The notes: generated by a model not told the origin, from the letters alone. A stretch of 20,612 nucleotides of DNA from Bilabrum cf. latius (GCA_965178125.1 OZ237740.1:1488001-1508612); one strand, 5' to 3'. Counted from the first letter of the stretch, positions 594 through 19,687 are shown. A program made the numbers and translations.

Positions 594-897
594 GATGTGT
601 GCAGTTTTGATGGCGTGTTGGGCGCTCCGGCAGCCTACCGACTTCAGGGTTTAACTTGCTTCTTGAGTTGAAATGGACAGCCAGCGTTCAGTAGAAGACA
701 ACTCGGACCGCTGCTGCGGCGTGCCACACGCTGTGCGGTGTAGGACTCGTACAAGACGCTTTGTTCGCCACCGCGAATGAATTTTGCCATGATACTGCCT
801 CAAACCCACAACTGCAAGCACTCAACACGCCCGTCCGACGCGTATTCGGAGCCACTGCCAGTGCCAGCATCCAGCGCAAACAACACAGATTTAATTG

Positions 898-2754
898 ATG
901 CAGCAAAGTGCCGCAAAGACAGTATGCACAGTTTGCAAACTTCATCCTAGCAAGTACAAGTGCCCGCGATGCTCCGTCCAGACGTGTTCTTTGGGCTGCG
1001 TCTTGAGCCACAAACAACAGACTGGCTGCAGCGGCAAGAAAGAAGCTGTTCCGTTCATTGCTGTCAAAGAGTATACCGACAAGAAATTCCACAGGGACTA
1101 TCATTTGTTAGAGTCTATGGCGCAAGCATCTGATGCTGCACGGCGGGATATTCGGCAGTATGGCACTCAAATCGGTGCGAGCCGGCAACGCGGACGGAAA
1201 AAGCAGCCAGAAACGTCAAAATGGAACGAATCACTGCAAATGGACGGGCTACAAAACTCCCCAAAGCTCCCTACTCTGCCAAGACCGCTGTATCGTCTCG
1301 TGATGGCAGCAAGACAACGGGGAATCGATCTGCGTCTCATGCCAAAGGGGATGGTGAAGAGGGATACGAATACAACGCGGTTGTGCTCGTCTCGAAGTTT
1401 GTGCGGTATATTGCCAAGTAGAGGATCTGTGCTGGCTCATAGGGTTGCCAACGGGAACAGACCCTCACCTGGGACGTCTGTCGTTGTTAGTCCAGCATAC
1501 GCAGCGGGGCGACTAGCGTACGGTCTGGTTGGGACGCAACCGACTGGCGTTTCGGAGTCAGATCAAAAGCGACGGCAGCCTAGCTCTATAGCACCTCACT
1601 CGCAGAGTGAAGCGATAGATCGATCACGAGCATCAAGGAGGCGGTCCAACCGGAAGCGGCGCCGCATCGAGGTCGAGACCCGCACGGTTGCAAGCACGGT
1701 CACACCGCAGTCTGGAGAAGAGTTGCGAGCAGAAAATGAAATAGAAGATCCACGAGAATCAAAGAAATCAAGAGTAGGGCAGCTGGAGAGCCAACCGGGC
1801 AGGTTGGTTGGGCCGAAGGATACCGCCGCAGACCAGCAGTCGGCTGGGCCGAAGGATACCGCCGCAGACCAGCAGTCGGCTGGGCCGAAGGATACCGCCG
1901 CAGACCAGCAGTCGGCTGGGCCGAAGGATACCGCCGCAGACCAGCAGTCGGCTGGGCCGAAGGATACCGCTGCAGTCAGGCAAACTCTTGAGTCTGGCAC
2001 ATCTTCCTAGGCTGCCGGGTAGGTGATATGCTGGAAAGTTGAGATCATTGTGCGCTTCGCTCTGAGCGAAACTCGAGGTGCGCCATCGAAGGGCACCCCC
2101 TCGCACGGCATGGCTCAAGTCAGCTCGATTCGAGTCGTGGAGGACCTGGTCCACGAGAATTGCACGCTGCTGGACCTACTAGCAGTCTGGGAGGAAGAGG
2201 TGCACCACCCGCGCTACGCTGCCCTGAGACCCATCTGGAAGCGAGGCAGGGCGCACGAAGCCAGAGAAACTTCGACCTAGGCAAGCAGCACCAGAGGCCC
2301 CACAATCGATCGAGTCAGCTCGGCCCGCGAAGGTACATGCTCAACGAATGGTCCTTCAGGCCACGATGGACCGCCAGCAGCTTCAAAGCGACCTCAGTTC
2401 GTGGCTCTAGTCTAGCGGCCGTTCAGGTACAAAGGCTCTACACAGTTCGTGGCGTTTCCGAGCCCGTCGATACCGCTGCGAAGCATGCTTCAGCACGAGG
2501 CGGTGCTAGAGCACCCCACTGTCCACCTCGTGTGTCTGCCGCCTGGAGATGACCCGCACGGGGCCATTGATGCTGCTACGAGTGCTGCATCTGGCATGTC
2601 GATGCCACCCAGCTAGACGAATGCCAGTGCGATGGATGCGCCAGAGCTGGCCGGCACCTCCCGCGCAGTTCTGACTGGCACTATTGACACGCTGGTACAG
2701 TAGCTAGTGCAGAGGTGTGCAGGTCCAGCTACTGCGGTTGCCCGAGGTACCTGA
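898..2754 (+). CDS. BCD1: Box C/D snoRNP assembly factor BCD1/ZNHIT6 (zf-HIT), about 618 aa when 6 TAGs are read as sense
   Basis: N-terminal zf-HIT CTVC..KYKCPRC...TCSLGCV..HK..TGCSG, then DYHLLE and AARQRGIDLRLMPKGM.KRDTNTT. The same frame continues past TAG 2008, 2020, 2278, 2413, 2614 and 2701 into the BCD1 motifs ICWKVEI, VHENCTLLDLL and LRSMLQHEAVLEHPTVHLV. First TAA/TGA is TGA 2752-2754. Confidence 0.9.
1810..1975 (+). repeat. 36-bp coding tandem repeat, 4 perfect copies plus a partial (GPKDTAADQQSA)
   Basis: gggccgaaggataccgccgcagaccagcagtcggct x4, then gggccgaaggataccgctgcag, within BCD1. Confidence 0.95.
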
Positions 2755-2790
2755 ACACCTGGATCGCGTGCAGCAGCCCATGCAGCATAC

Positions 2791-3914
2791 TTACAGCTTG
2801 GCGCGCGAGTGCAAGGGACGAGCCGTGCCTGCACCACTGCGCTCTTGAATGGCGCGAAAGGACACCTGTTTGCGGGTTGCTGCTCGCTGTGCCGCCGACC
2901 ATGCAGCTGCTTCCATGGACTCGCCGGAATCAAGGCGAGCGAGCAGGCACCCCATCTCAGCCCGTGCTACCTCTTGCACGCGGCTCGACCAGACCCCATT
3001 GACTGCATCGGCGCCTGCAGCTTTGCTTGCCTCGCCGGCAGGGCTCTCGGGGATCCTCGTGGTGGAGTCATCTCCAGCACTCCGCCTCGAGACGCCGCCT
3101 GATCGTAGCAGTGCCTTGCACAGCATGGCGCTCTTGGAGGCGTGCGGCGCTGCAAACATGCGCTCCAGCTGCTCCAGCGCGACCCCGAGGCAGTGCTTGG
3201 CCGGCACTTCGGCGGGGATCACCTCAGTCACCAGGCCCCAGGCTTGCGCAGTCTCTGCAGAGATGCACCTGCCGCAAAACAGGAGCTGAAACGACCTCTG
3301 GTGTCCCTGCGCATCAAAATTGTTGCAATGAGCGGCAATGCCAGTGGTGGCATGCGGGCTGGTGCTGGCAGGCTGCAGGCAGGATCGGATCGACACACTA
3401 CAATTTGACGCATGCGTTTGGGCTTGGTCGTGCGTCTCACAATAGCAGCCGGCAGCAACATAGATGAGCCCAGCTCTGGCACTATGGCCAGCTCGCGGAA
3501 TGGTGCTCGGAAAGATGCCCTTGCCGAAGCGTACACCAGGTCTGCCAGCAGCATGAGGGTAAGGCCTGCACCTATCGCAGGGCCGTGGACCACGGCAACG
3601 ACTGGAACTCGTAACTGAGCCAGCGCCGCCGTCAATTGGTATGCCCCTGCTTGGTCTGGTGACTTTGGAGGCTCATCGGCAGCCGCGACGTCAGCCCCAG
3701 CAGTGAAGTACGGCGACCTTGGATCTGAGCACAGCACCAGTGCGTCGCAATTCCCATTCGCTTCATCGCATAGAGTAGCCAGCTATTTGAACGATCTTCC
3801 GTCGATACTATTGTATCTATCCACTTTTGATATCACGATCACTCGAAACCGCAACGTTGTCTCGCTTGCATTCTGGAACTCATGATCAAAAAATGATATG
3901 GAGGGCGTTGCCAT
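2791..3914 (-). CDS. Crotonase-family enoyl-CoA isomerase/hydratase (ECI2-like), peroxisomal PTS1 -AKL; exons 3914-3441 and 3306-2791, about 329 aa
   Basis: ATG 3914. Motifs YNSIDGRSFK[TAG 3785-3783]LATLCDEA, YFTAGADV, PVVAVVHGPAIGAGLTLMLLADLVYAS, FRAPFRELAIVPELGSSMLLP. Intron GTGAGA(3440)...GCGCAG(3307) joins LLPAAI|GHQRSFQLLFCGRCISAETAQAWGLVTEV. Ends SRAKL-TAA. Confidence 0.9.
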
Positions 3915-4185
3915 AGACAGAATAATCGGCCAATGGAGCCTTATGAGACGCGGTGTTGCATTTGCGGCTGCTTGACCGGTTCTAACCTCATCTCAGCTTG
4001 CGGAAATCTGCAATTGGCCATTGCAAGGCGAACCACTCAAAGACCAAACCCGGCCCGAGCTGCTCAGTCATGATGGTCTGTAGCTCTTATATTCGTCTCG
4101 TGTTGCCGTGATTTGGGCGTCAGTATCTATCTCGTCGGCTGGCATCATCACATCGAATCACAAGGCAAGCCCGACCTCCCAGACC

Positions 4186-6183
4186 ATGGCAGGTGCACTG
4201 TGGGCCTACTTTGATAATTGTTATGGTGTTGATGACAACAAATAGGGAGCTCAATCTGGTGACTAGGTAAACGCTGACGTATTCGCATCAGTTGAAGCCT
4301 GGGAAAGCGCTCTGCCAGGCCAGAGCAGTCGAGAGAGTATGCTTCCAACGGGAAACCGATTGTCTAGAAACCGTGCAAAGTTGCAGGAAATGTTGCTTCT
4401 GGAGTCTCGCAAATCAGAGAGCAGGCAGCTTCAGCAAGCAATGCTTTAGTCGCGTCACGAATAGGAACAAAGGCTTCTTGACAGCAAGATACAAGGGAAA
4501 TGGCGTTCAAACCGGGCCCATGCCTAGATTGCGGCAGCTTCATTTCGAGCCGAGCATGGCTCGTCGCTGTCCTCGAGTGAGCTTGCGGTTGAACGGCATA
4601 GAGCCGTTGGTGCGAGCTCGATGTGTGGCTTCCTGAGCGAGATGGACAAGCTTGAGGACGGATTCGTTTCTAGGCAGGGTTATACGCATGGTGCAGATGG
4701 GATCATTCGGCTGTCTCGCGGGTACAGGAAGTATGTCACGTCTGTACGAGGACGTTTGCTGGAGCATCTCGATTCCAACCGGCACCAGCGTCCCGGGAAA
4801 GACGTTGGAAATGAACCACCAACAGAAGTCGCAACAAGTGAGCGAGGTATTATCGTGAGCGTTAGATCGGCTGGCATGAAGCTAGCTGCGACCAAGGCGG
4901 ACAAACAAGGAGGTGGCATGAACAAGGCTAGGCTACCTGCGACCAAGGCGGACGGACAAGGAGGTGGCACGAAGAAGGCCATGAGGCCTGCAACCAAGGC
5001 TGCTAACAAATCAAGGCCTCCCTCTACAACGAAGGGCCTTGATGTTGATGTTGATGAAATGAAAGTCAAAGTTAATGCCGATGATTCGGACTGCAGGGGC
5101 AGCACCGGCCTGAATAGATATAGGCCATCTCCGCCCTCCCCTACTAGCCGCAAGCTTCAGCAGCAGCAGATAAGATCAACTAAATGGTGGCACCTGCATG
5201 CACTAGATGTCGGCGCTAAGAGGCATACTACCCAATCGGGCCGGCATAGGCGGACGTCCGGTGCCAGGAACGATTTTCAGCCGGACATCCTGATCACGAC
5301 CTTGGAAGGGGTTGAGGGACGGGCGGGCAGACCTGGTGCGCTACCGGTCGTGCGCCCAGATCGTGGCCGCGAGGCAACACCGACCTACAGACCTTTGAGG
5401 GACACCGGGTCAGAGACAATGCGCAAACTTGATGGTGACAGGAAGTTGCCGATTCTGTCTAATTGTTCAGACAGAGCTGGAGGGACTGGGCCATCTATGC
5501 CGACTAGTGCACATCCGCAGGACAAATTGGAGATGTGCGGCCTTCTTTCGCACAGGGGGTTCCGGTGGATGCGTCTGCGACAAGCCGGCTCGGTGCGCGC
5601 CCAGCCCAAGACCAGCGCTGGTGCTAGTGCTGGATCGCCGTCGCCAGGGACGGTTTCAGCGCCAGTGGCTACGACCAGGCAACCTTCACTGCCACTGCCA
5701 GCGCTAGCTGCGCGAGGGAAATCGGGACTTGATGCATCGTTGGCTGACCCTGCACAGTCCGCAGAAGCGCAGGATGATCTACCGGTAGAAGCACCCACTT
5801 CAAGCCGTGGGAGAGCATCGTTCTCTTCTCCTGGCACGGCGCGATCAAGTACCCCGTTTATGGAGGGGTTTCTAGACAAGCATGGTAAACAACGGAATGG
5901 GGGTCCGGTGCGTGCAATGACGACGGTGCGCCGAGGCTTGCGCTTGTCGCAAACATCCCCGAGGGCCCAGGGCATGAGTTTTCCAATGGGCTAGCACCAG
6001 AGGAGAAGACAGCACCAGCGGCCGCAGTGGTCACCGGTCACTGCCGAACAGGCAAAATCTTGGTCGGTCAAGCAACGGCGACAGGAGCTGGCACTGGGGT
6101 GTGTAAGTGGTGAGGTCGTGTCTACGACTGACGCTGCTAAGCCTACTTATGTCACTCGTAGGTAGGGCGGAGGACATGCTTAA
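4186..6183 (+). CDS. Hypothetical protein, about 665 aa with TAG as sense; N-terminal coiled-coil-like segment then low complexity; 3' end uncertain
   Basis: Frame is free of TAA/TGA from 3976 to TAA 6181 and contains TAG at 4243, 4264, 4447, 4462, 4525, 5992 and 6163. First ATG is 4186 (accATGg). A possible intron GTAAGT(6103)...CGTAG(6161) would move the stop to TGA 6321-6323. No family recognised. Confidence 0.65.
4888..5001 (+). repeat. Degenerate 51-bp coding repeat (ATKADKQGGGMNKARLP / ATKADGQGGGTKKAMRP / ATKA)
   Basis: gcgaccaaggcggac units start at 4888 and 4939, and gcaaccaaggct at 4990. Confidence 0.85.
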
Positions 6184-6511
6184 GACCACTCCTCGCCGGC
6201 GAACGAATGGGACAACCGTGGTCAGTAGGTATCCCGGGGTTGCCAGAACCACTGCGTCCCACACCACCAGCAAACCACGTGCAGTATGCGGCGTGCAGAC
6301 GGGCTACTGTTGTGCTATGTTGATATCAAGATGTGGCTGTGCCTGCCCACGCCACCGCCACATTTCTTTCTGTGTCATTCTGCATTCTGTTAGGCCCACG
6401 CCCGGATGGATCCGGAGTCGTTTCGTCCGTGGCTCGGTGCACAATTCTCTTTGTGCTGCCCAGTGTCCAGGTATTGGCTTGTCATCATTCGTAGTACTAG
6501 CCGGAGTAACT

Positions 6512-7503
6512 ATGGATGGTGTTGGAAAGTCAATGATGAGATCCCTCGGTCGGAAAACAAATGAAGGAGCAGGTAGTGCAGTGTCGTCCTTCGCTCTCAA
6601 GCAGTTGGAGAAATTTGGTTGGAAGTCGGGAATGGGGCTTGGTAAGGAAAAATAGGGCAGAAAAGAGCACGTGCGTGTGAAAAAGAAGGATGATAACACT
6701 GGGGTGAGGTTTGTAGCAGCTATGCAACTGCAATTTCCCGTGTTCGTCATGGTTGCCCGCTTCCAACACAGTTGGTGTGCCCGTCACTTTACTTTTCCCC
6801 ACGACAGATTGGAGCAGATGCTGCAAAAGCTAGTTAGATGGCATCGCAGTGGTGGTGGTCGTCGCACTCAGCTCCAAGCGTGAAGGCTGACGCTTCTTTG
6901 CTCTCCTCGAGTGCGCCGAGCAGCAAAGATGCGCTCAGCAGCTCCAAACTAGACCTTGATACTAATAATACTAGACCATCCAAGTCGATAGGTAGCGATG
7001 GCCGTAGTCGCAGCCGTAGCGACAGCGACAGCGATAGCGACAGCGATAGCGACAGCGACAGCGATGGCGGTGGTGCCCCAGGTGTCATTGGCTGGGCAGG
7101 GTAGGCACCCCCTTCGGACGCAGAATTATTTCGAATGTGCGGGGGCAAGCGACTTGGAATGCGAGCAAGGTCCTCATAGCAAGGCAAGTGGTTGAGGGTA
7201 GAGGGAGACGTGCTGGAGGGGCGGCTTTCGAAGGAGATGGGCCAAAAACGGCGGAGGACGCAGGATTCTGCAGACGTAGTCGAATCGTCGGACAGGGCCA
7301 CTATGAAGGAACCATCAGCAGCGAGCGCATCAAAGAAGCCAAGAGTTGACGAAGCAGAAGTCGCACGCTCAGTCAAGGCTACTGGCTCCATGGATCAAAG
7401 GGGTGGTAGTGCATCGGGGGGAAAGAGCAAAAAACGTGCCACCAAGAAAGCCAAGAAGGAGAAGAAGGCCAAAAAAGACAGGAAGACTGCAACGTCGACG
7501 TGA
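6512..7503 (+). CDS. G-patch domain protein (GPATCH4/PINX1-like); exons 6512-6703 and 6808-7503, about 295 aa
   Basis: G-patch SFALKQLEKFGWKSGMGLGKEK[TAG 6653]GRKEHVRVKKKDDNTG|IGA across intron GTGAGG(6704)...GACAG(6807). Then a WW motif, an SD tract, SDAELFRMCGGKRLGMRARSS[TAG 7177]QGKW and a lysine-rich tail. Other TAGs at 6835 and 7102. Stop TGA 7501. Confidence 0.88.
7018..7065 (+). repeat. (AGCGAY)8 hexamer microsatellite encoding (SD)8
   Basis: agcgac/agcgat run within the G-patch gene. Confidence 0.9.
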
Positions 7504-7859
7504 TAGAGTGGAACCTCACTACCACATTTGCCTTTCGCTGCAATTGATTGTTCCCGTTCGAACTCCAATGCTACCAGTCCTGTACCACTTCCTTGGTCAA
7601 GTGTGGAAGAGTTTTCAAGCTTGCGGGTTCCATGATTATGCTTGTGACCGGATCGAAAGTACCTTCTAAATCTGCGACCAAACTCGCTGCCTGCCAGAAA
7701 ACTTACGGCACTTCGAGCGCCGACATTTGGCCATGGTTCTGGTTCGCGACCTAGCTATGAACTGGCCAAGTATAAAGCTGGTTTAAGGCTCTTGACAAAC
7801 ACAGCGCTCCTCATTCATTCCCGGCATCGACTGTAGATCCCTGTTGAAAGCTGAGGCGA

Positions 7860-10800
7860 ATGCCAGCGAGCACCTTTCTCTCAATTTTGCATGCCATTGC
7901 AAGCAACGATAGCATTGGCATCGTACAGTTTGGGTCGGGCGGCTCTGGTCTCATAATTACGCATGCCAAGATGTTCGAGCAGGCAGTGCTGCCGGCCAAC
8001 TTCTCGACAACGAAATTTGCTAGCTTCTTGCGATCGCTGAGCTACTACGGTGTAAGACACAACGCCGAATGGTAAAATGTAATTCGATGAGTTGTTTCGA
8101 TTTAAAGCAAGTCATTGCTGATCACTAGGCAGTTCCGAGCAGTTCTGATGATTCTCGGCTTTTACTGCACTCGTCAAGTGTTCCCAGAAGCCAACCAGTA
8201 CCGCAGTTTCGACGCGTAAAAAGCAAAGTATTTGATACAGAGAGAGGTACTCGAGATAGGCATGTGGAGTGGTCGCACGACGTGAGCCAAGACTGAGTGA
8301 TTTGGGGAGGCGAGATAGCCCCAACAGTAGGACCGCCTCTCATCCTGCATTGGAACCACTGCTCGCAGAAATTTGTTGCCAACCACCCTGAGCTGGTTAT
8401 CGGTCTGAAACGAGCCGGTCGTGAACCAAAATCTCGGCGAAATCCGGAGGGCCGAGCAAGGAACCGCGGGGCTGCTAGCCAGCAGGTAAGCCCAGGGGGC
8501 AACTCTGTGGCCGGGGCCGCGGGAAGCGCCGCTGGTGGGCTTGGGGGTAAATCTAGTCAACAGGCTGCCGCGGCAACGTCAAAGCCGCTGCGGGACGCAC
8601 CAGCACGAAGCCAGCCAACAGCTGCGCGAGGCGCCCGACGGTCATCCCGGGCGCGACGGGCCCCGAAAGCAGCCTACGAAGAAGTGAGAATCGGCTGTTA
8701 GCCATGATTTCATGCCGTCGTCAATATAGAACTCTTCATTACCCCACCTTCCCTCAGCAAGTTGCCCCTACTCCGCAGTTGCATTCGCGTGGACCGACAG
8801 TGACAGGGCATCCAGCGGCTGGCTCGGGTTCTCGCCCGAGCCCGAACGAGAGAGGGGCAATGGGCACCATCCCATGCGTGCACAATGGACTAGTGGATGC
8901 CAGCCAGGGCTCCTTTCTACCCGCAGTAGCATCGTCACAGTCTATGCAGGTGCGCATGAGCATGCCCCCTCCACGGCAAGACGCGGCACCGTTTGTGAAT
9001 GCAGCGGGTGAAAAGCACCATGAGTCGCAGCAGAGCGTGGCAGATGCGATGCTTGATAGTTACTAGATGTATAAGGACATCCGAGTGAGGTCAACTTCAA
9101 TGCAGGCACCAGGAGCAGCTGGCGGGTGGTCCACCCTGAGGCAGGACGCAGCAGAGCGGTGGCAGCTGCACCAGAACTCACGGGCGGGAGGGCACGGCAT
9201 GCTAGGGCAAGCCTGGCCAGCCAATATGCACTCTGAACGTGGGCCAACCATAAACGTAGCCCAAGAGGGTGATGGGATGTCTATCCTGTCAAGTCCTGCG
9301 GATGCGCGGCCTCCCACCTCCTGGGGCGGCTCGTCATCGTCGGCACTCTCGGCTGCATCTAGGTGGGTGCACTTGCATGGGTCTGTAAATTCTGCCGGGG
9401 ATAGTCGACCTTCAGGGTTGCAGTCGATCGTGCCGCCACCTCCAGTGGACACAGCAGTGGCTGGAGGCATACCGGTGAGTGCAATAACGGTGCCAGTTGG
9501 GCAGGACCTTCGTGGCATGCGAGGGGCAAGCCCACGTGGCGGCACCGTGCAGCAGGACGAAGGGGTCCTGGGTTACGAAAGTAGCGAGGACGTGGCCAAG
9601 ACGCTGGCGTCTATGAGTTCACCCTCTCAATCAGGCCGATACAGCCGCGGGAGCTCACGAGGCAACCGCCGGGGGAGGTTCGTGGCGGCAAGTCGAAGAG
9701 CTAGCCTCGCCGAAATGCAGCAAAGCCCTCTGGCAGGTGCTGTGCGGGGTTTCGAGGCTCCACAGACCGGGCAGTCTTTTCCGCCAGCCTCGTGGTCTTT
9801 AACCAGTGGCTCTGCACACCAAACCGACGATTCGAAGCGTCGATCAAGCTCGAGGTATGACTCAGAGACGAACCCGACTCAACTCGGGTTGTCCTCTCGG
9901 ATAAGCTCCACGCACCGGGGATCGGGCAAGGCTGCCGGGTCTCGGAGTGGAACGGACATCGGCGTGTCCAATGACCAGAGCAACACAGCCAGTGCGATTC
10001 AACGCGACACGTGGTCAACAGGCTCGGGCTCAGAGCGAATGACAGACAGGGCGCTTCCACCATCGCCACAAGGCAACGCTTAGGCTGAATTACCGGACCA
10101 CAGCGGTGAGATGGGCGGTGATACCACCCGCTCCGGGTACCAGATAACGCCTAGCAGTATCACTGGTGTTGGGAAGCAGCAGGATGTGCTGGCTTGGCCC
10201 TCTGGGCATCCTTGGACGCTGCATCGGAAGGTGTCGACTGAGCCTGCAGCGCTTCGTCGGGTGCATTTTCGTGTGCCAAGGCTTGGCGAGGCGCAGAGAT
10301 CAGGGTATAAACGACCGAGAGCTGAAAATGGGGACGTTTCTGGCGAGGGGCAAATGCAAAAACGTGCTCGAACAGAGGTCAATGCAAGCCGCGGCATGGG
10401 TTCTGCGGGGTCGCAAGCAACGTCGCCGAGCAGCAGCACTGGTGTACAGTCTGCAGTCCCATTTGGAGGGCCAACCAGCAGGAACAACGAATCGCGGGCT
10501 GATCAGGCCAACCGCAATCGAATTCGTCCCCTACAGTCCGATGGGCCCTCCGCTGCTGAAGTTGTCCAGCTCGAGCACGTCGGACACCCAGGAGCTTCTC
10601 GGAGGTCCAGCGGATCAGGCCCCTCCGTCGCTTGGTCCTTCGACGAATCAGGCTCGGCCCTCTGGACACGCCGCAATGCTAGCCGGAAATCGCCCAATCT
10701 AGCCCGGCCTGCTGCTGCAGGGTAGTCCCTAGGTGCGTGCAGCAGCGATGGCAGCATTACGACCATGGGCGTGTCCCCCCCCCCGTCCGGGTGGCAGCTG

Positions 10801-11838: not shown

Positions 11839-11912
11839 CGCTCAAAGCTCAGTGAGTGACACTCAAATAGACCAGCTGATGCAGGGAAAATTTTTCCGGG
11901 CATTCAATCAGA

Positions 11913-12525
11913 TTAAACCTCCTGGGGGGACGGAGCCAGAGCAAGCCCAAACACCGTGCATATGCACTCAACATACCCATTGTCGAGGGTAAGTTTGCAC
12001 AAACCTGCAAAATTTGAAGATCATATAGCAAGTAGAAGAAACTAAAGGCTGTAAGTGGCATGCCGTGCCAAGAGCTGAAACGCGCTCACCATCCTTGTCC
12101 CTGTCCCAATACGCGGCTGCCGCCGTATGCAAGCCCGCTCCTACCTTTTGCTGCAAGATGCATGTCACCACATACTTAAATTTCTTTTGTTGCTGTTGCA
12201 AACCCTTGAGGCAGTGTTCAATGATCTGATTGGACCAGAGATTGACCTTGTCTGCCTAAAACGTCGATTCTTTAAGGGTAGCCTTGAGTGCCTGCGTATA
12301 GACTCGATTCGTAAGATTCAACCATCGGTACTGTGTTCATATGAAGGAGTTATCGAATTCGAACAACCAAACTCACATCTCTGACCACGCGTTCGACATC
12401 GTCTACTACAAATTCCTCCTGCGAACACAACAACATACCGATTGAGACCTCGCACTGTCAATCTGCTGCATCTAAGGTATGACAAGTTGGTACATTTTAC
12501 TCACTGCATCTGCACCCATTGCCAT
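11913..12525 (-). CDS. DYNLT1: Dynein light chain Tctex-1 type; exons 12525-12505, 12418-12377, 12291-12090, 12004-11913, 118 aa
   Basis: MAMGADA|EEFVVDDVERVVRD|ALKATLKESTF[TAG 12258-12256]ADKVNLWSNQIIEHCLKGLQQQQKKFKYVVTCILQQKVGAGLHTAAAAYWDRDKDG|LCKLTLDNGYVECICTVFGLALAPSPQEV-TAA. Three GTGAG...GCAG introns of 85-86 nt. Confidence 0.95.
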
Positions 12526-12754
12526 GGCTGCAAAAATACAAGCTGCCCGCGCAGCAGAGGAAGGATAATGCTCAATGGAAAGCAGAAGTTGCCGTTAGCC
12601 AAAGTGCAGGGCACTGTACAGCCAGCTGTGCCGCTTGTTTTTCATCCGGCCAATTGTCGCCAGTCGACCAATGCGGTGGTTGTGCAGGCTTGCTTCCATT
12701 CATGCTTCCTCCCCGATGCGGGCGTATGCAGCATATGATCGCTGAAGGGACTGC

Positions 12755-15700
12755 ATGGGGAACTCTCCCGCAGTCATCGCCTTGGTGATCGCAATTTTGT
12801 CCGGTTCGGAATCGTTTGCTCGCACCCGAGTTGCGATAATTGATACAGGGGTGTCTAAATGTATGGTGTGTCGTCAGAGTAGTCAGGAAGAAGACTAGTG
12901 CAGACATTGCATTTCGACCCTAGAACCGACGCACAGTATTGTCACCGAGCACGTGGCCGACTTGTCAGATTGGGTCGATCGCCATGGACATGGCTCGTTT
13001 GTCGCAGATTAGTTGTTGAGATTTGCGCCAACACGTCCACAAGTTATCTCCATCAAGGCGTTCGATATTGCTGGACAGACCCGCGCCACTTGGATGGTTT
13101 CTGCAATCAAGAAAGCGATTGAAATCAAGGCTCATATCATTCTCCTGAGTAATGGAGCTGCCGAACAGGAAGATGGGGCAGTCGCAGCAGCGATAACACA
13201 GGCCATTCGGTACGGTGCAGCGGTGTTGGCAGCAGCCGGCAACGATGGAGCGTCTCCAGGAACAGTCCTATCCCCTGCGATATTACCGGGTGTTGTTTCT
13301 GTCACTGCGTGTAGTTTCTATCATGCGCATCACCGTCATCCTGATGCGATGCCTGGCCCAGGCTCTAGGTGCCCACTGGAGCTGCTGGAGTTCAGCTCCA
13401 GGGGCCCTGCCGTCTCAGCTGGAGGCCAGCTACGATTCGTAAGCGGTGCCTCGTTGCCTGGATTCAAACTGGCCGGCGTAGGACTGCTTGGTTAGCCGAT
13501 GTACAAGTCAGGGACCAGCGTGGCTGTGCCGCTGATGGCTGCCCTGGTGGCATCTGGGACGCAGTGGGCGAGCGACTTGGTGTGGTGGCAAGCAGAGTGC
13601 GCGCAGGGGAATTTAACGGAATGCTAGGGTGGCCCCACGTATCACCGAGCTGTTCCACAATCGCTTCCACGCTGGGTGCAGCTGGCTGCCTAGCAGCATG
13701 TACGAGCGTGGGCCCGGCTGGGCTCGCTGTGTAATGCTACTTCGTCGCAGTCGTGGTGGGATGAGCTGCGTGAGGCCTGGTCTCTCAAATGGCAGCTGAT
13801 ACGGTCCCACCATAAAGGTGGCATCAGTAATGATTGGGACAATGTGATATCCGCAACAACCCCGAGCAGCATCAAAAAGAGTGGTGGGTAGAGTCCAGCA
13901 TAGACGGGAGTAAAGTGCAGCGCCCTGCACTCTTTGTGCCATATGCTCAGCGCTCATTCTGCCCATTCCATCGATGCCAGTGGCGTGATTCGACCCACTA
14001 AAGGCTTGACACTGGACATGGCCGAGCTCACGCGGGATGAGGCTGCTTGGTTGCATCAGCTCAAAGTGGGTCGTCAGTGCGGGCCATCATCAAGCTCCGG
14101 CCGGTCATCCATTCGTTCATCAGTGCTTTGCAACTCGATTTTGTTTCCTGGGTCTCTGCCGTTGGAATTCTCAGTCGATTTCGTCGGAACTGGGTCAATT
14201 GCCTTCCAGACGGGCAGCAATGCTCTCGCGCAGTGGTCCCCTGTTCGTTGCTGGACTGGGGCCATTGCACTCGTGCCGTGCTCTGAGCGCCAGCTGCTGG
14301 CTGTCTCATAGAGACTCGAGGTGCGAGCATCTCTTGCGGCACAGAGCACAACTTTTAGTGCAGCGCAAGACCTGACCATTCGGATTCAAGTGAAGCCAGC
14401 GGATAGCGCCGCCCTGGCTGCTGGGGAACCACTCGTCTTAGAGGGTGAAGCTGTCGTTGATGTCCCACTCTGCAGACTTGTACCGGACCTAGCCGTCGTT
14501 GCCCTCGAGGCGGCAGCTTAGCACCGATGCAACGGTTGCTCGACCCGCCGATTCGGAGCGTCCGCCCATGTATTTCCAGCCCATATCGCATGGGCCGTTG
14601 GAAACGAATCGAGCTCCGAACATGAAGCGGTGGAATACTGCCAGCACCCCAGTGGGATATCAACAACCACAGTGAAGACCCGATTCAGGTTTCACTCCCG
14701 AAAACCACCGTAGCGGTTCCGTATGGCCGTAGACACGCATCATTCTGCAGCGTTTCCTCGAGCAAAGAGCTACCGAGACGATCTTCGAGCTGCATCGACA
14801 GCAATGGACGCTGCGGGAGACTCAATTCGCACCAACTTTGGCCAACTGCTACAGGTGGCTGGCACGCAGGGTGTTATCCTGGACGAGGTCCACACGCACT
14901 TATACACTGTAAACCTTTGCCAGTACGGTGCAATCATCATTCCCGATACAGAGGTCCCGTTTTCAAGTGCCGAGAAGTAGCACCTGTGGGGAGCAGTTTG
15001 GCCGACCATCTTTACGAGCTAGACACAAACGAGCGATCGTGGCAGCCAAGCATCAGAACAACCGGATGAGTGCAGGCCGACTAGTGTCATCGTACTAGCT
15101 GAGTGGGATGACAAGCGTCTGTATCCTGGTGGGCCGATATGGAACCAGAACGAGCAGACTTGGTGGACTTACAGTTCCCCGGGAACCCAATCCGGCGTAG
15201 TTGATGCGATTTTGGAGCCTGCACAAGTGCGTATGGTTCCTAGATCTGCATCTGGAGTGGTAAGGTAGTCTCTCAGGTCGAGCGAGTTGGTGCTCCCCTC
15301 CTGCCATGACCCCATAATGGCTGAACTACGATCTGCTTCACCCATTGGAGGGCTGCCTCGCGGAGCCCTCATGCAGTTCGCGTGGATGCGCGATGACGTT
15401 GTGGATGGCAGTGCTCGTTCGCACGATGGAACTGCTTCAACTACAAGCCAATAGCTCGGGCCGTTTGCTGATGAGCTCCAGGTGCCAGCCGATCGGTCGG
15501 GCCTTTCGCCATTCGGCTAGGCTGGGTGTGAGCAGCAGCTCTAGTGTTCCAAATGGGGCGTGGTGATCGCTGCTCTTGATGAAGAAACCTCATTCCGTGC
15601 TGCGACTGGGTTTTGTAGGTACCGGAACGCCGTCAATATTGGTGCAGTGAGTGCACGTCCGGAACCCTGCGCAACTGATACATCTAGTCGAGTCCCTGGA

Positions 15701-16240
15701 ATACCGTCAACGAGCAACGCTACCCACGTATCAGCGGCACGCGCGCAGACTGCTGGCCGGATCGTTGTGTTCAGTGATACCGCTTGTTTCGATTCTGATT
15801 ACAGATGGCCGTCGAGCTCGGTTGATCCTGATGCACCACGAGCATCCAGACTGTTCTGTCGCGGACTACTGCAGCATATGATCCGGTATGCAGCATTCGG
15901 GCGCAGGCAAGATGCCGCAGTGTTCGCGCAGAGTGGGCCACTTTCGCACCATTTCATCGATCCAATCATACTGCAGTAGGCTGCTGCTGAGAAAACATCG
16001 GCAGACAGCAGGTCGGTAGCCAGAGCAACTCCTCACGCCCACAGCAGGCTTCGGTCGTCTCCTCGCAGCACAACGCCCCGCACGGAGGGTCCCCGAGCTG
16101 ACAGTGTTGGTGTTTGGCTTGGGCCTGAGCCGCGGGTCGGGCAATGCGAGCAAGAAGATGTTCAAACGGTATCGGCTGATATTTCGCTGGCAATAGCGGA
16201 TGTATTGGGTGCCTGCGATTAGGCCAGCGGCCCTTGCTAA
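12755..16240 (+). CDS. Site-1 protease (MBTPS1/SKI-1)-like subtilase (S8), apparently single exon, about 1161 aa with 18 TAGs read as sense
   Basis: Signal-peptide-like MGNSPAVIALVIAILSGSESFA. Catalytic motifs VAIIDTG (D 12842), HGHGSFVA (H 12989), AAGNDG, FSSRG and SGTSVAVP (S 13517). S1P-type C-terminal motifs RDDLR...D..GDSIRTNF, QYGAIIIPDTE, VIVLAEW...TWW and GRIVVFSDTACFD. All in one frame ending TAA 16238. Confidence 0.88.
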
Positions 16241-16334
16241 TGCCCAAATTCGATTGAGTCCATCGTGACCATTCCATACGAGCTGCATGCTTATCGAAAT
16301 TCAACGCACATCAACAGTGACCCTGACGAGAGTC

Positions 16335-17477
16335 TCACACGCCGCCGCCGCTCGCGGCCGCGCCGCTCCAACTGCCATCTGCCCGCGGGCCCGCCCCCCC
16401 CATGGCGCGAGCACCTGCGGCACCCAGAGACCCACGCGAGTAGCTCGCGCTCAGTCCACCGCGAGAATAGCCTGCACTTCCTGCGGAGACATCGTCAACT
16501 CCTCGTGACGCAGAGGCTCCGGTGTCCCCAGGCCCGCCATACCCCCCGAGCCCCGCTTCCCTGCCTCTTGCCGGCGGGTAGCCATAGCTGTCTCCAGCGC
16601 CTGGTGCTGCCGCTGCAGGAAGACCAGACGGAGCGCCCATCAAGGCAGGCGCAGACGCGCCATGCTCACCGGCGTAAGACGGCCCACCCATCCCTCCGGG
16701 TGCGTCGTACCCACCCTCATACCCACCCCCCATCATGTCCCCATCGTACCCACCTGCAGTGCAGAACGTGAGGTCGAACAATAGGACACAATTATTTTGA
16801 AAACTCACGCGCAAAACTAGCAAGATGACTTTTGCAATTAATCTCTGACAGCACTTACCTGTAGCATAGCCCTCTGCACTGGAGTGCCTGCCGCCCATGG
16901 CACTTGAAGCGCCTCTTCGCGAAGCTGTAGGCTTGAACTCAGAAATCGTCTCCAGATACTTCTCGCTCTTGATCCGGTCTTCCTCCCACTTCCAGTGCGA
17001 GTACACTGGTTGCACTGTGCGCAGTCTCCGGAGTATTTTTTGATTCTCCTGCGTGATTCTCTGCAGCTCCTTCTTCCGAGAGCTGCGGTTCATCGACCGG
17101 CCGTACTTATGTGACTTTGAGACCATATCAAGGGAGCCCTTCCGCATAATTTCGCTCATTTTTGCCAGGAGCAAACGGTTTTCGTGTTCAATCTTGGCGT
17201 ACCTCTCTGCGGTACTAAATTACTACGAGAAATATGGGACATGAGCGTGCATTGACTTTTCGTGCCGGAAACGGCTTATCGCGAGCTCGATCTCACCCTC
17301 CATCATTTGTTCACGTTTTAAATTCCGCTGCATGTGCTTCGGTCTCTTCGGGGCCCGATTGTCCACCGAAGCCTTCATGTTGCGGAGCCGTTGGCGATGG
17401 CGCCGTTGCTTCTCGGCTATCTCGCGCTCATACAGCAGCTTGCTCGACTTTGGCTCCGCTTTGCGACCGAAGTACAT
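16335..17477 (-). CDS. CFAP97/Hemingway (KIAA1430)-domain flagellar protein with a Gly-rich tail; exons 17477-17297, 17206-16859, 16753-16335, about 315 aa
   Basis: HRQRLRNMKASVDNRAP...KREQMME|ERYAKIEHENRLLLAKMSEI...RSMNRSSRKKELQRITQENQKILRRLRTVQPVYSHWKWEED. Introns GTGAGA...CCGCAG (90 nt) and GTAAGT...CTGCAG (105 nt). Stop TGA. No TAG. Confidence 0.88.
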
Positions 17478-17663
17478 AATTCTATGATAGTACGGAAAGT
17501 CCAGACAGGCAAAATGTTCGACTCAATGGCGCTTCCAGCTCTTGTCGTAAAATCGACAAGCCCACTGGCCGTTGCGGAACCAGTGAGATGTCGCGCGGCG
17601 CCACTTTATTCGAGCCTTGACGCATTTTGCTCGTATGTGGCGGTTTCAGTGTGATTAAGCGCA

Positions 17664-19190
17664 ATGCAAGAGGAAAAGAAGTTATTGCCTAAGCGGACAA
17701 GCCGTGGAAGGCGCAACACAGCACTAGTTGGAGAAGCAGCAGATGCTGACAAGAGCTTTTGGGACCAGGATGCCTTCAAGGAGGATTCTGGCGATAGTGA
17801 GTTCGACTCAACTGATGCATCTTCGGACAGTGAGGACAGTGATATAGATAACGATGAGGGCGACGCCGCCAATGATGACGGTGAAGAAGCGGACGATGAT
17901 CTCGAGGCCGGCCAGCAAGCGAAAAGGGTATACCTTGACCCTGCCCTTCGCCGAAAGATGGGCATAAAAGGGTTGATGTCCGGAGTTCTGGGAGCATAGG
18001 ATAGTGACACCTCTGGATTTGACGCGAAGCCGATCATATTTGATGCCTCAGTGGAACTTGACAGTCGAGCACGAGAGTATCTCGATAGAGTATTGCGGCG
18101 ATAGGCAGAATTGCAGTCTCTGGAAGCAAAAAATCGCGGTGCGCAATATTTTCCTGACATAGACTCAGCCAGTGATGATGGCTCGGGTTCGACTTTGGCA
18201 GACCAGCTCAACCTTGAGTCCGAACCAGAACTTCCCACTAGAGAGAGCGGACCTCTCGACCCGACAGTGGTATTGCGAAGTGCTGCGGAAACAGCCATGG
18301 CATCGTTGGAGTCGCTTCAGTCTATGACAGCTGCTGCAGCAGATGGAAGTGCTCATCGCAGCAAAGGTGTGGGACGTGGACGTGATCGGCTCGCTCACAC
18401 ATCCGGTGCCACTGCAGATAGCCACCAGTCACTGGGTGTTGCTCCACTTCTGTTAGGCAAGAGCATGCACAGAGCAAGCACATTTCTAGTGACTACAGCT
18501 GCAGCTGGAGGTGTGGCTGGCCTGCTGGATGCATTTGTAGATGACTCTGCTTCCATCGGAGCTGTAGGCTAGTCAGATTTCACCTCGGTTACCCGATCCA
18601 GCTTGAGCTCGGCGGCGCAAAGACAGCTAGCATCTGTGCCATTCGTGTCTCCTGCTGCAGCTCTCGGTGCGTCTGCAGGGGATGCATACCGTGCTGCGAG
18701 GCGGGAAGTGGAGCGCGCAGTGGAGACAGCACAACCGGGGCTCGAGCTGGGCAACAAAAGACAGCGGGGTGCAGCGGCTGCGGGTCGGGGCAGAGGCAGG
18801 GGAAGAGGGAGAGGAAGGGGGAGAGGAAGGGGTAGAGGTAGGGGTGGTGGAGGACGGGGAGGGGGTGGTTCAGCAAGCAGCTACTAGGTGCCTGCACAGA
18901 GAGCAACAAAGATTCGACGCATTTCCACGATTCGTCAGACTGCTGGGACGGCTTCTGCCTCGGCAGCTGGGGCGCCGTCAGGCACTCGATCGGAAATTGT
19001 GCTCCTTGACCAGCTTGGGCAGGTCCCACGCACCCTGCAGGCTGTTGCACCTCCCCCTATGCCACGAGTGTCCAGGCCTGCGGTCGCTGCTTCCCAGGAG
19101 CAGCCTGGGGACAGCGTGCAGAACTGGTTCGTGGTTCGTGGGTCATCGGACACGGCTGCGTTCATGCAGCCCATTCGAAAATTAAAGTGA
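17664..19190 (+). CDS. VPS72: VPS72/YL1/Swc2 (SWR1/SRCAP H2A.Z chaperone subunit), about 508 aa with 4 TAGs read as sense
   Basis: LPKRTSRGRRNTALVGEAADADKSFWDQDAFKEDSGDSEF...DSDIDNDE matches the YL1 N-terminus, followed by RVYLDP and VLRSAAETAMASLESL. Frame runs through TAG 17997, 18102, 18570 and 18885 to TGA 19188. A possible short intron 19187-19236 would move the stop to 19249. Confidence 0.8.
18783..18869 (+). repeat. Gly-Arg (GR)n / RGG coding tract
   Basis: GRGRGRGRGRGRGRGRGRGRGGGGRGGGG encoded with mixed codons within VPS72. Confidence 0.9.
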
Positions 19191-19487: not shown

Positions 19488-19629
19488 ACTTCCCATCCGC
19501 CGCACTCACTGTCCATCTTCCAGCTCCCTGACTTCCCATCCGCCGCACTCACTGTCCATCTTCCAGCTCCCTGACTTCCCATCCGCCGCACTCACTGTGC
19601 ATCTTCCAGCTCCCTGACTTCCCATCCGC
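19488..19629 (+). repeat. Subtelomeric 43-bp tandem repeat, about 3.3 copies
   Basis: acttcccatccgccgcactcactgtccatcttccagctccctg at 19488, 19531 and 19574 (one C>G), plus a partial at 19617. Confidence 0.95.
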
Positions 19630-19640
19630 GACTCCACAGA

Positions 19641-19687
19641 TAGGGTAGGGGTTGAGGGGTTTAGGTGGGTTTGGGTTAGGGGGTTTT
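19641..19687 (+). repeat. Degenerate telomere-variant repeats
   Basis: tagggtaggggttgaggggtttaggtgggtttgggttagggggtttt immediately precedes the perfect array. Confidence 0.85.

What the first reader, a model, noticed from the sequence alone, without database searches (positions are those of the whole stretch)
898..19190. Variant nuclear genetic code: TAG is a sense codon while TAA and TGA terminate
Seen: about 50 in-frame TAGs by hand count (BCD1 6, crotonase 1, orphan 6-7, G-patch 4, HSF 11, Tctex-1 1, subtilase 18, VPS72 4) in 8 of 10 genes, on both strands, with no in-frame TAA/TGA and no frameshifts. Family motifs resume in the same frame after the TAGs. All ten genes end in TGA (6) or TAA (4), none in TAG. 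Known: nuclear reassignments nearly always move UAA and UAG together (many ciliates, hexamitid diplomonads, some ulvophytes). UAG-only nuclear codes are rare (e.g. Iotanema UAG=Gln, an uncultured rhizarian UAG=Leu, some phyllopharyngean ciliates). Inference: a GC-rich genome with 74-155-nt introns and TTAGGG telomeres does not look like a typical ciliate, so this may be an independent origin. I cannot identify the organism or confirm novelty from the window.
Basis: partly seen in the sequence, partly recalled or inferred. Interest (0 to 1): 0.97.

Follow-up and report, generated by a model that had tools for sequence, protein, structure and literature searches.

The report
Nuclear genes reading TAG as sense
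This chromosome end belongs to a eukaryote whose genes are full of in-frame TAG codons that stay in the spliced messenger RNA, so TAG is read as an amino acid (probably glutamine) while TAA and TGA still end genes, a rare kind of genetic-code change.

Summary
With RNA-supported gene models, 10 genes carry 52 in-frame TAG, 0 TAA and 0 TGA in 5,544 codons. They end in TGA (6) or TAA (4), never TAG. In the other two frames TGA is the commonest stop triplet (218 TGA, 122 TAG, 58 TAA).

Pfam domains run across TAGs in one frame. Contigs of two runs from two studies are spliced at 9 GT..AG introns and show no differing letter. 50 of 52 TAGs lie in the listed pieces of run X6. Three protein fragments from an 84-91% identical relative stop exactly at three of our TAG sites, so the TAGs are inherited.

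The amino acid is not settled. Glutamine fits best: a 93% identical relative has Q at the Tctex-1 site, and G-patch and Tctex-1 homologues have Q or E there. One relative site shows E, one F and one H, and the subtilase columns carry no information.

The organism could not be placed, and no whole genome, tRNA or eRF1 was available. I found no paper describing such a GC-rich, TTAGGG-telomere lineage. Verdict: a real UAG-only reassignment and probably a new member of a known, rare kind.

The parts
1..593 (+). Gene0, cut at the window's 5' end. Exons 1-168 and 261-593, stop TGA, 0 TAG in 166 codons. No Pfam family; by far the highest RNA contig depth in the window.
   Evidence: Intron 169-260 (GT..AG) is removed in X6 and X7 contigs, depth 1506 and 462. 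Frame. Pfam gives only a weak, sub-threshold match.
898..2754 (+). BCD1 / zf-HIT protein, 618 codons, stop TGA. 6 in-frame TAG with first bases at 2008, 2020, 2278, 2413, 2614 and 2701.
   Evidence: zf-HIT E 3.4e-9 and BCD1 E 2.8e-12. BCD1 profile 2-34 lies before the TAGs and 39-142 after them in the same frame. Yeast Bcd1 zinc finger in the PDB. Counts.
2791..3992 (-). Enoyl-CoA hydratase/isomerase family gene, stop TAA. 1 in-frame TAG at 3785-3783. Predicted intron at 3307-3440 (134 nt, GTGAG..CGCAG).
   Evidence: ECH_1 profile 18-147 lies in the upstream frame and 145-204 in the downstream frame. The intron joins the two frames exactly. It is not spliced in the one listed RNA contig, X6 record 17.
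4186..6183 (+). Orphan protein, 665 codons from the first ATG, stop TAA. 7 in-frame TAG at 4243, 4264, 4447, 4462, 4525, 5992 and 6163.
   Evidence: No Pfam family. The frame is 735 codons between TAA/TGA stops. Covered without differences by X6 record 18 and X7 record 23.
6107..7503 (+). G-patch (PinX1/PXR1-like) protein, intron 6703-6806, stop TGA. 4 in-frame TAG at 6653 (inside the G-patch), 6835, 7102 and 7177.
   Evidence: G-patch E 2.5e-11. PXR1 is the best PDB match. The intron is removed in X6 and X7 contigs that also carry the TAGs.
7848..11838 (+). HSF-type transcription factor, introns 8052-8206, 8282-8368 and 8684-8778, stop TGA. 11 in-frame TAG between 9064 and 11764.
   Evidence: HSF_DNA-bind E 1.4e-9 on exon 1. 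All three introns are removed in X6 and X7 contigs. Spliced frame of 1217 codons. All 11 TAGs lie in X6 record 19.
11913..12594 (-). Tctex-1 dynein light chain, introns 12003-12087, 12291-12375 and 12418-12503, stop TAA. 1 in-frame TAG at 12258-12256.
   Evidence: Tctex-1 E 1e-17. PDB alignments. Minus-strand introns are removed in RNA contigs, with the 203-nt exon that carries the TAG lying between two joints. A relative, P0151, has Q at the TAG site.
12746..16240 (+). Subtilase of the site-1-protease type (S8 domain plus MBTPS1 fourth domain), intronless, stop TAA. 18 in-frame TAG, at codons 51, 89, 250, 294, 316, 382, 386, 522, 592, 656, 745, 759, 841, 903, 925, 933, 1078 and 1159.
   Evidence: Peptidase_S8 residues 28-282 span 3 TAGs, and MBTPS1_4th 654-744 spans one. 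The catalytic residues D33, H82 and S258 are invariant columns in one frame. X6 record 20 covers 12664-16245 with 0 differences. Relative fragments P0001, P0002 and P0026 end at TAG codons 522, 759 and 592.
16335..17522 (-). CFAP97/Hemingway family gene, introns 17207-17296 and 16754-16858, stop TGA, 0 TAG.
   Evidence: Hmw_CFAP97 E 3.7e-15. The first intron is a joint in X6 and X7. The second is inferred from loose ends in X6 and X7 that match 16739-16751, with GTAAGT..CTGCAG ends and 105 nt in frame.
17655..19190 (+). YL1/VPS72-like protein, stop TGA. 4 in-frame TAG at 17997, 18102, 18570 and 18885.
   Evidence: YL1 E 8.8e-8. Weak VPS72 match in the PDB. 3 of the 4 TAGs lie in listed RNA pieces; the fourth lies beyond a skipped repeat.
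19488..20612 (.). Chromosome end: a 43-nt subtelomeric repeat (3.3 copies, 19488-19629), then (TTAGGG) x154 running to the window's end (19688-20612).
   Evidence: Tandem Repeats Finder.

Best explanation
The window is the end of a nuclear chromosome of a eukaryote in which UAG has been reassigned from stop to sense, while UAA and UGA still terminate.

Shown here:
- TAG occurs in coding frames about as often as out of frame.
- It sits inside conserved domains.
- It is kept unedited in spliced mRNA.
- It is shared at the same sites by a related organism.

Inferred from established knowledge of such codes (passages of PMC5304391):
- UAG is read by a tRNA with anticodon CUA, which pairs with UAG but not UAA.
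- The single release factor eRF1 has lost or weakened recognition of UAG.

The amino acid is most likely glutamine (my estimate about 0.55). That would make this the same code as NCBI table 15, with a tRNA-Gln(CUA) one anticodon change away from tRNA-Gln(CUG). The confidence of 0.9 is for the stop-to-sense reassignment, not for the amino acid.
For: Frame statistics and gene ends:
- 52 TAG, 0 TAA and 0 TGA in 5,544 in-frame codons of 10 genes on both strands. Off-frame counts are TGA 218, TAG 122 and TAA 58.
- All 10 genes end in TGA (6) or TAA (4).
- Long frames appear only when TAG is read through: 1164, 1095, 735, 619 and 511 codons, against a maximum of 488 under the standard code, 488 with TAA read through and 676 with TGA read through.

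Domain continuity across TAGs:
- The S8 match at 28-282 crosses 3 TAGs, with the catalytic D, H and S in one frame.
- MBTPS1_4th, ECH_1, G-patch and Tctex-1 each cross one TAG.
- BCD1 profile 2-34 lies before its TAGs and 39-142 after them.

RNA:
- Contigs of runs X6 and X7 (two studies) lack 9 GT..AG introns that the DNA runs X1 and X5 keep, and show no differing letter.
- 50 of 52 TAGs lie in the listed X6 pieces and 33 of 52 in the listed X7 pieces.
- The G-patch and HSF TAGs lie on contigs that are themselves spliced.

Relatives:
- Fragments P0001, P0002 and P0026 are 84-91% identical to the subtilase. All 3 end immediately before our TAG codons 522, 759 and 592, as expected if a gene caller stopped at the same TAGs.

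For glutamine:
- P0151, 93% identical in the Tctex-1 exon, has Q at the TAG site between conserved flanks.
- Fly and human Tctex-1 have Q there.
- Of 4 ungapped G-patch alignments, 2 have Q and 2 have E at the TAG column.
- An empirical column model of the subtilase family ranks Q first.
- The sequence neighbourhood of the 52 TAGs resembles that of L, F and Q, and is unlike that of E, K or D.
Against: On the reassignment itself:
- Only 10 genes could be examined and no whole genome is held. That TAG never terminates is therefore shown for 0 of 10 genes only.
- In the orphan and the subtilase a TAG lies 6 codons before the TAA, so termination there cannot be excluded.
- No tRNA gene lies in the window, and eRF1 is not available.
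- Run X6 is labelled 'probably DNA' by the tool. RNA status rests on the spliced joints and the uneven depth.
- The intronless subtilase contig cannot by itself be told apart from DNA.
- The predicted ECH intron is unspliced in the listed contig.

Against glutamine:
- At three other TAG sites the close relative has E (codon 386, where 26 of 30 family members also have E), F (codon 745, perfectly conserved flanks) and H (codon 382, poorly aligned).
- Conserved subtilase columns at TAG sites show E, R, G and V/L/I, which point to no single residue.
- A fixed-tree likelihood test gives E 0.45, A 0.33 and Q 0.001. The terminal branch is 3.6 substitutions per site, so this mostly reflects the model's base frequencies.
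- Substitution matrices applied to the 4 relative sites leave H, Q and E tied.
Confidence: 0.9

Rival explanations
1. UAG is a sense codon but encodes an amino acid other than glutamine. Candidates are glutamate, histidine, leucine and serine, all but histidine with precedents elsewhere. It would be read by a tRNA(CUA) derived from that amino acid's tRNA.
For: - The relative has E at codon 386, where 26 of 30 family members have E. It has F at codon 745 and H at codon 382.
- The likelihood test on the subtilase prefers E and A.
- Columns 89 and 841 are V/L/I.
- The context model ranks L first.
- Chlamydomonas Tctex1 has S at the TAG site.
- Precedents are UAG=Leu (rhizarian exLh), Ser (Scotinosphaera) and Glu (an uncultured ciliate), from passages of PMC11687900.
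Against: No alternative fits all lines of evidence.
- E, K and D rank 17th, 20th and 16th of 20 in the context model.
- L ranks 13th in the empirical column model and 15th by BLOSUM score.
- The best-flanked relative site shows Q.
- The likelihood preference for E and A is largely the model's base frequencies on a saturated branch.
Confidence: 0.35
2. UAG has a dual, position-dependent meaning: sense inside genes but also a terminator near some 3' ends, as in ciliates and trypanosomatids with ambiguous stop codons.
For: In 2 of 10 genes (orphan and subtilase) a TAG lies 6 codons before the TAA. In two more it lies within the last 25 codons. Ambiguous codes exist (abstracts of PMC4967479 and 10.1101/2022.04.12.488043 in the listing).
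Against: From the TAG density (10 genes x 6 codons x 0.0094), I expect about 0.56 genes with a TAG in the last 6 codons. Observing 2 has a Poisson probability of about 0.11 (my arithmetic), so there is no significant excess. No gene ends at TAG without a nearby TAA or TGA, and 10 of 10 have a TAA or TGA where the frame closes.
Confidence: 0.07
3. The TAGs are not translated: the genes are decaying pseudogenes, or the TAGs are assembly errors, are edited in the RNA, or lie in unrecognised small introns.
For: None found. The divergent subtilase has TAG at some columns that are conserved in the family (G, R, E), which could be read as decay.
Against: - Decay would also give TGA and TAA and frameshifts. 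About 109 and 29 are expected from off-frame densities; 0 are seen.
- Four runs from four studies carry the same letters.
- The spliced contigs keep the TAGs, with no joint around any of them.
- A relative keeps three TAG sites.
Confidence: 0.01

Closest known systems
Iotanema spirale (fornicate): UAG=Gln, with UAA and UGA as stops (PMC5304391 and PMC9161772, passages read)
   Same: A non-ciliate nuclear code with only UAG reassigned. UAA and UGA are kept as terminators. Glutamine is the likely meaning. The predicted mechanism is a tRNA(CUA) plus an altered eRF1.
   Different: Iotanema is an anaerobe with a reduced mitochondrial organelle, known from a transcriptome only. The window has an enoyl-CoA hydratase family gene, about 56% GC, regular 85-155-nt introns and a TTAGGG telomere. 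Identity or kinship with Iotanema could not be tested, because no marker gene lies in the window.
Rhizarian exLh: UAG=Leu, with UAA (56 genes) and UGA (15 genes) as stops (PMC5304391, passages read)
   Same: UAG-only reassignment in a non-ciliate, discovered inside sequence data filed under another organism. The window's sequence likewise occurs in runs filed under four organism labels.
   Different: In exLh the TAGs sit at conserved leucines. Here leucine ranks low on family columns, and the best relative site shows Q.
Phyllopharyngean ciliates (Hartmannula sinica, Trochilia petrani) and Protocruzia tuzeti: UAG=Gln, NCBI table 15 (PMC11687900, passages read)
   Same: The same code table if glutamine is right, with UAA kept as a terminator.
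   Different: By my recall, ciliate telomeres are of the TTGGGG or TTTTGGGG type and their macronuclear genomes are mostly AT-rich. Here the telomere is TTAGGG and GC is 49-61%. In those ciliates UAA is the dominant stop; here TGA ends 6 genes and TAA 4.
Scotinosphaera (green alga): UAG=Ser with UAA as stop (one sentence in PMC11687900; original source not seen)
   Same: UAG-only reassignment in a non-ciliate.
   Different: Serine is a weaker fit here: third on BLOSUM columns, fourth in both naive-Bayes models, and not seen at any relative site. By my recall green algae mostly have TTTAGGG-type telomeres.
UAR=Gln codes (NCBI table 6: many ciliates, Hexamita, some Ulvophyceae, Streblomastix, Amoeboaphelidium)
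   Same: Stop-to-glutamine reassignment through mutated tRNA-Gln anticodons.
   Different: In those codes UAA is also a sense codon. Here TAA is absent from 5,544 in-frame codons and ends 4 of 10 genes.

Membership tests
UAG-only stop-to-sense nuclear code | In-frame UAG inside conserved protein-coding genes, with homology continuing in the same frame | tested here: met
   52 TAG in 8 of 10 genes. Pfam matches cross TAGs in S8, MBTPS1_4th, ECH_1, G-patch, Tctex-1 and BCD1.
UAG-only stop-to-sense nuclear code | UAA and UGA are absent in frame and serve as the terminators | tested here: met
   0 TAA and 0 TGA in 5,544 codons, against about 29 and 109 expected from off-frame density. Stops are TGA 6 and TAA 4.
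UAG-only stop-to-sense nuclear code | UAG is not used as a terminator | tested here: inconclusive
   0 of 10 genes end in TAG. Two genes have a TAG 6 codons before the TAA. The sample is too small and no genome is held.
UAG-only stop-to-sense nuclear code | UAG is present unedited in mature mRNA | tested here: met
   The spliced contigs of X6 and X7 carry the TAGs with no differing letter. 50 of 52 lie in listed X6 pieces and 33 of 52 in listed X7 pieces. These are assembled contigs, not raw reads.
UAG-only stop-to-sense nuclear code | A cognate tRNA with anticodon CUA | not testable with these tools
   No tRNA gene in the window and no whole genome held.
UAG-only stop-to-sense nuclear code | eRF1 altered in its stop-codon recognition motifs | not testable with these tools
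   eRF1 is not in the window and no genome is held.
NCBI table 15 (UAG=Gln) | UAG aligns with glutamine in homologues | tested here: inconclusive
   - Q in the 93% identical relative and in fly and human Tctex-1.
- Q, Q, E, E in 4 G-patch alignments.
- But E, F and H at three subtilase sites in a relative.
- Family columns are uninformative.
NCBI table 6 type (UAA and UAG both Gln) | UAA also occurs in frame as a sense codon | tested here: not met
   0 in-frame TAA, and 4 genes end in TAA.
Ambiguous stop/sense codes (Condylostoma and karyorelict type) | The same codon is sense internally and a stop near the 3' end. All or several stop codons are affected. | tested here: inconclusive
   Only TAG is affected. 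Near-terminal TAGs occur in 2 genes but without a significant excess (my arithmetic).

The most novel reading that the evidence does not exclude
This is an independent origin of a UAG-only reassignment in a eukaryote lineage that is not yet described. The organism is GC-rich and flagellated, probably aerobic, and has ordinary spliceosomal introns and TTAGGG telomeres. Relatives in environmental data already share the recoded sites. Because a telomere-reaching assembly and RNA data exist, it would be the first non-ciliate case in which the tRNA(CUA), the eRF1 changes and the genome-wide fate of UAG can be read directly. That would make testable the open question of how UAG becomes uncoupled from UAA.
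Probability: 0.45. Interest if true: 0.85.

Novelty: new member of a known kind. Interest (0 to 1): 0.72.

Why it matters
Nuclear code changes are rare, and those that separate UAG from UAA are rarer still. The passages of PMC11687900 that I read name a rhizarian, Iotanema, Scotinosphaera, Protocruzia, one uncultured ciliate and some phyllopharyngean ciliates.

For the two classic non-ciliate cases, PMC5304391 states that the tRNAs were unknown because no genome existed. If this organism is a further lineage with a chromosome-level assembly, the decoding tRNA, the eRF1 changes and the spread of TAG across all genes could be read off directly.

There is also a practical consequence. Annotating this genome with the standard code would break most long genes into fragments. 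That is what the database fragments of its relatives look like.

Tried and rejected
Tools that were unavailable or found nothing:
- Whole genome: none held.
- tRNA scan of the window: 0 genes.
- Word-based protein search with the subtilase: no hit at near lengths. At shorter lengths it returned only the two fragments already found.
- DNA of relatives was sought in metagenome contigs, prokaryote genome contigs and viral contigs. No relative was found, so no codon-level comparison could be made.
- The look-up of sequencing runs listed no holder on record as RNA. RNA status was inferred from spliced joints only.

Attempts to place the organism:
- The protein atlas on the Tctex-1 relative gave generic Tctex-1 clusters only.
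- The named best subtilase homologues are a choanoflagellate, two jakobids, a chlorarachniophyte and a haptophyte, at about 22-25% identity. This gives no placement.

Attempts to read the meaning of TAG from the subtilase family:
- BLOSUM column scores rank E, A, S, Q. Calibration shows a true Q ranks first only 1% of the time.
- The empirical naive-Bayes model ranks Q, R, A, S, E and has low power.
- Fixed-tree likelihood gives E 0.45, A 0.33 and Q 0.001, but on a terminal branch of 3.6 it follows the model's base frequencies.
- I rejected all three as not decisive.
- Substitution matrices on the four relative sites leave H, Q and E tied.
- PDB alignments for ECH, BCD1 and YL1 gave variable or unaligned TAG columns.

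Readings rejected:
- Pseudogenes, assembly error, editing and hidden introns: rejected on the evidence in rival 3.
- Nucleomorph or organelle origin: not pursued, given the spliceosomal introns, the TTAGGG telomere and nuclear-type genes.

Literature:
- Six searches found no report of a GC-rich non-ciliate with this code.
- The library lacks most subscription journals, and supplementary files were not opened.

Full report
WHAT THE WINDOW IS

The window has 49-61% GC. It ends in 154 copies of TTAGGG (19688-20612), preceded by a 43-nt subtelomeric repeat. No whole genome is held for it. It carries ten closely packed genes on both strands.

CHECK OF THE OBSERVATION

Frames from stop to stop:
- Under the standard code the longest frame is 488 codons.
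- With TAG read through the longest are 1164, 1095, 735, 619 and 511 codons.
- As controls, reading TAA through gives a maximum of 488 and reading TGA through gives 676.

Pfam assigns these frames as follows:

| Gene | Pfam family and E-value |
|---|---|
| BCD1 / zf-HIT | not repeated here |
| Enoyl-CoA hydratase | ECH_1, 6.9e-15 |
| G-patch protein | G-patch, 2.5e-11 |
| HSF-type factor | HSF_DNA-bind, 1.4e-9 on exon 1 |
| Dynein light chain | Tctex-1, 1e-17 |
| Subtilase | Peptidase_S8 plus MBTPS1 fourth domain |
| CFAP97 | Hmw_CFAP97, 3.7e-15 |
| YL1/VPS72 | YL1, 8.8e-8 |

Two further genes, the orphan and gene0, have no family.

RNA EVIDENCE AND GENE MODELS

The stretch is held by runs filed under four coded organism labels in four studies. 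I laid four of them on the window.
- X1 and X5 carry it collinear with the window, as DNA would.
- Contigs of X6 and X7 lack nine segments of 85-155 nt with GT..AG ends on the strand of the gene concerned, so they contain spliced transcripts.
- No differing letter and no insertion or deletion was reported for any run.

The tool itself marks the RNA status of X6 and X7 as a guess. My inference rests on the joints and on depth that varies more than 50-fold between genes.

With these introns the HSF, G-patch, Tctex-1, CFAP97 and gene0 frames close up. Two more introns are inferred:
- 3307-3440 in the hydratase joins two frames exactly and restores profile continuity (ECH_1 positions 18-147, then 145-204). 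It is unspliced in the one listed contig.
- 16754-16858 in CFAP97 is supported by loose ends in X6 and X7.

COUNTS

From the first ATG to the stop, the ten genes hold 5,544 codons, or 5,509 after the second CFAP97 intron is removed. They contain 52 TAG, 0 TAA and 0 TGA.

| Gene | In-frame TAG | Stop |
|---|---|---|
| gene0 | 0 | TGA |
| BCD1 / zf-HIT | 6 | TGA |
| Enoyl-CoA hydratase | 1 | TAA |
| Orphan | 7 | TAA |
| G-patch | 4 | TGA |
| HSF | 11 | TGA |
| Tctex-1 | 1 | TAA |
| Subtilase | 18 | TAA |
| CFAP97 | 0 | TGA |
| YL1/VPS72 | 4 | TGA |

The two earliest orphan TAGs would fall in the 5' UTR if a later ATG is used.

In the two other frames of the same genes there are 218 TGA, 122 TAG and 58 TAA.
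- In-frame TAG density (0.94%) is close to off-frame density (1.10%).
- About 109 TGA and 29 TAA would be expected in frame if the frames were not coding. None is seen.
- The chance that all 52 in-frame stop triplets are TAG is about 2e-27.

Of the 52 TAGs, 50 lie in listed pieces of X6 and 33 in listed pieces of X7. The Tctex-1 TAG lies in a 203-nt exon bounded by two joints in an X6 contig.

DOMAIN CONTINUITY

- The S8 match (residues 28-282) crosses three TAGs.
- The catalytic Asp33, His82 and Ser258 are invariant columns in an alignment with 30 site-1-protease-like homologues.
- MBTPS1_4th crosses one TAG.
- The BCD1 profile is matched at positions 2-34 before the TAGs and at 39-142 after and across them.

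RELATIVES

A full HMMER search of 1.84 billion representatives with the subtilase found three short, unnamed proteins at 84-91% identity.
- P0001 covers codons 382-521, P0002 covers 660-758 and P0026 covers 551-591.
- Each ends immediately before one of our TAG codons (522, 759 and 592).
- They look like pieces cut by a gene caller that took TAG for a stop. They show that a related organism has TAG at the same three sites.
- All other hits are below about 35% identity.

WHICH AMINO ACID

This could not be settled from one window.

Close relatives give four sites:
- P0151, 93% identical over the Tctex-1 exon, has Q between conserved flanks.
- P0001 has E at codon 386. There 26 of 30 family members also have E.
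- P0001 has H at the poorly aligned codon 382.
- P0002 has F at codon 745, within perfectly conserved flanks.

More distant homologues:
- Fly and human Tctex-1 have Q, Chlamydomonas Tctex1 has S, and the 63% identical P0152 has D.
- Four ungapped G-patch alignments give Q, Q, E and E.
- Conserved subtilase columns at TAG sites show V/L/I (codon 89), G (250), E (386), R (656) and V/L/I (841).

Three scoring schemes on those subtilase columns disagree with each other, and calibration on known residues shows low power:
- BLOSUM scores rank E, A, S, Q. A true Q ranks first only 1% of the time.
- An empirical naive-Bayes model ranks Q, R, A, S, E.
- A fixed-tree LG+G4 likelihood gives E 0.45, A 0.33 and Q 0.001. 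The terminal branch is 3.6 substitutions per site, and per-site differences mostly equal the model's base-frequency ratios.

A model of the ten neighbouring residues around all 52 TAGs ranks L, F and Q highest. E, K and D come near the bottom.

Glutamine is the only residue acceptable on the relative sites, the moderately conserved columns and the context. It is also one base from TAG (CAG) and is the commonest precedent. I put it at about 0.55, with the remainder spread over Glu, His, Leu, Ser and others.

MECHANISM

Shown: TAG is in frame, transcribed, kept after splicing and conserved between relatives, while TAA and TGA close all frames.

Inferred from passages of PMC5304391:
- Reading UAG but not UAA requires a tRNA with anticodon CUA.
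- eRF1, the single eukaryotic release factor, must lose or weaken UAG recognition.
- For glutamine the tRNA would be one anticodon change from tRNA-Gln(CUG).

Neither component could be examined. There is no tRNA gene in the window and no genome is held.

RIVALS

- Dual meaning of UAG is not excluded. Two genes have a TAG six codons before their TAA. About 0.56 such genes are expected by chance (my arithmetic), so the excess is not significant.
- Pseudogenes, assembly errors, editing or hidden introns are contradicted by four things: the absence of TGA, TAA and frameshifts; identical letters in four runs; unedited spliced contigs; and the shared TAG sites.

COMPARISON WITH WHAT IS KNOWN

Passages of PMC11687900 list the nuclear cases in which UAG differs from UAA:
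- an uncultured rhizarian (Leu)
- Iotanema spirale (Gln)
- Scotinosphaera (Ser)
- Protocruzia tuzeti (Gln)
- an uncultured ciliate (UAA=Lys, UAG=Glu)
- phyllopharyngean ciliates (Gln, Leu)

PMC9161772 (passages) shows that Iotanema's closest studied relatives keep the standard code.

The present case works like these. If glutamine holds, it uses NCBI table 15. It fails the table 6 test, because TAA is not a sense codon here.

It does not look like a ciliate. By my recall ciliate telomeres are not TTAGGG, and the GC content and ordinary introns also differ. Its hydratase gene sits oddly with an organelle-reduced anaerobe such as Iotanema, though that is weak evidence.

The organism could not be placed:
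- The named best homologues of the subtilase are a choanoflagellate, two jakobids, a chlorarachniophyte and a haptophyte, at about 22-25% identity in the alignment.
- The protein atlas gave only generic clusters.
- No DNA of relatives was found in five collection scans.

Six literature searches found no report of such an organism. I read listings and abstracts, plus passages of three papers. Supplements were not opened, and subscription journals are mostly absent from the library.

VERDICT

The amino acid is probably glutamine but remains open. The novelty class is a new member of a known, rare kind, provided the organism proves to be an undescribed lineage, which this window alone cannot show.

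Noticed in passing
window 1-593: Gene0 is cut at the window's start. Its RNA contig depth is about 20-60 times that of its neighbours (1506 in X6, 462 in X7). It matches no Pfam family above threshold and has no TAG in 166 codons.
   Followed up: partly
window 8500-16500 (runs X1-X8): The same stretch, without any differing letter in the runs laid, is held by runs filed under four different coded organism labels in four studies. The organism may therefore live with, in or on others, or the same material may be filed under several labels. I did not pursue this.
   Followed up: no
window 11838-12002 and 6107-6183: Genes are packed tightly. One RNA contig (X6 record 19) bridges the 3' ends of HSF (+) and Tctex-1 (-) and carries introns of both strands. 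The orphan's frame overlaps the start of the G-patch frame, and one contig (X6 record 18) covers both.
   Followed up: partly
window 1809-1975: A 36-nt tandem repeat (4.6 copies, 99% alike) lies inside the BCD1 coding frame. It encodes a repeated 12-residue unit between the two parts of the BCD1 domain.
   Followed up: no
window 3307-3440: The predicted 134-nt hydratase intron is needed to join two frames and restore domain continuity. It is not removed in the one listed RNA contig that crosses it (X6 record 17). This could be intron retention, low expression or DNA carry-over.
   Followed up: partly
window 16754-16858: A 105-nt in-frame intron in CFAP97 is not in the joint table. It is indicated by short loose ends in X6 and X7. 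Removing it deletes an odd hydrophobic stretch from the protein.
   Followed up: yes
window 169-17296 (all introns): Most introns start with GTGAG or GTAAG, and most end in (C)GCAG or TGCAG. Lengths are narrow, at 85-155 nt.
   Followed up: no
window 12746-16240: The site-1-protease-like subtilase is very divergent, at about 22-25% identity to 30 homologues. It sits on a terminal branch of 3.6 substitutions per site, yet it keeps the catalytic Asp, His and Ser.
   Followed up: partly
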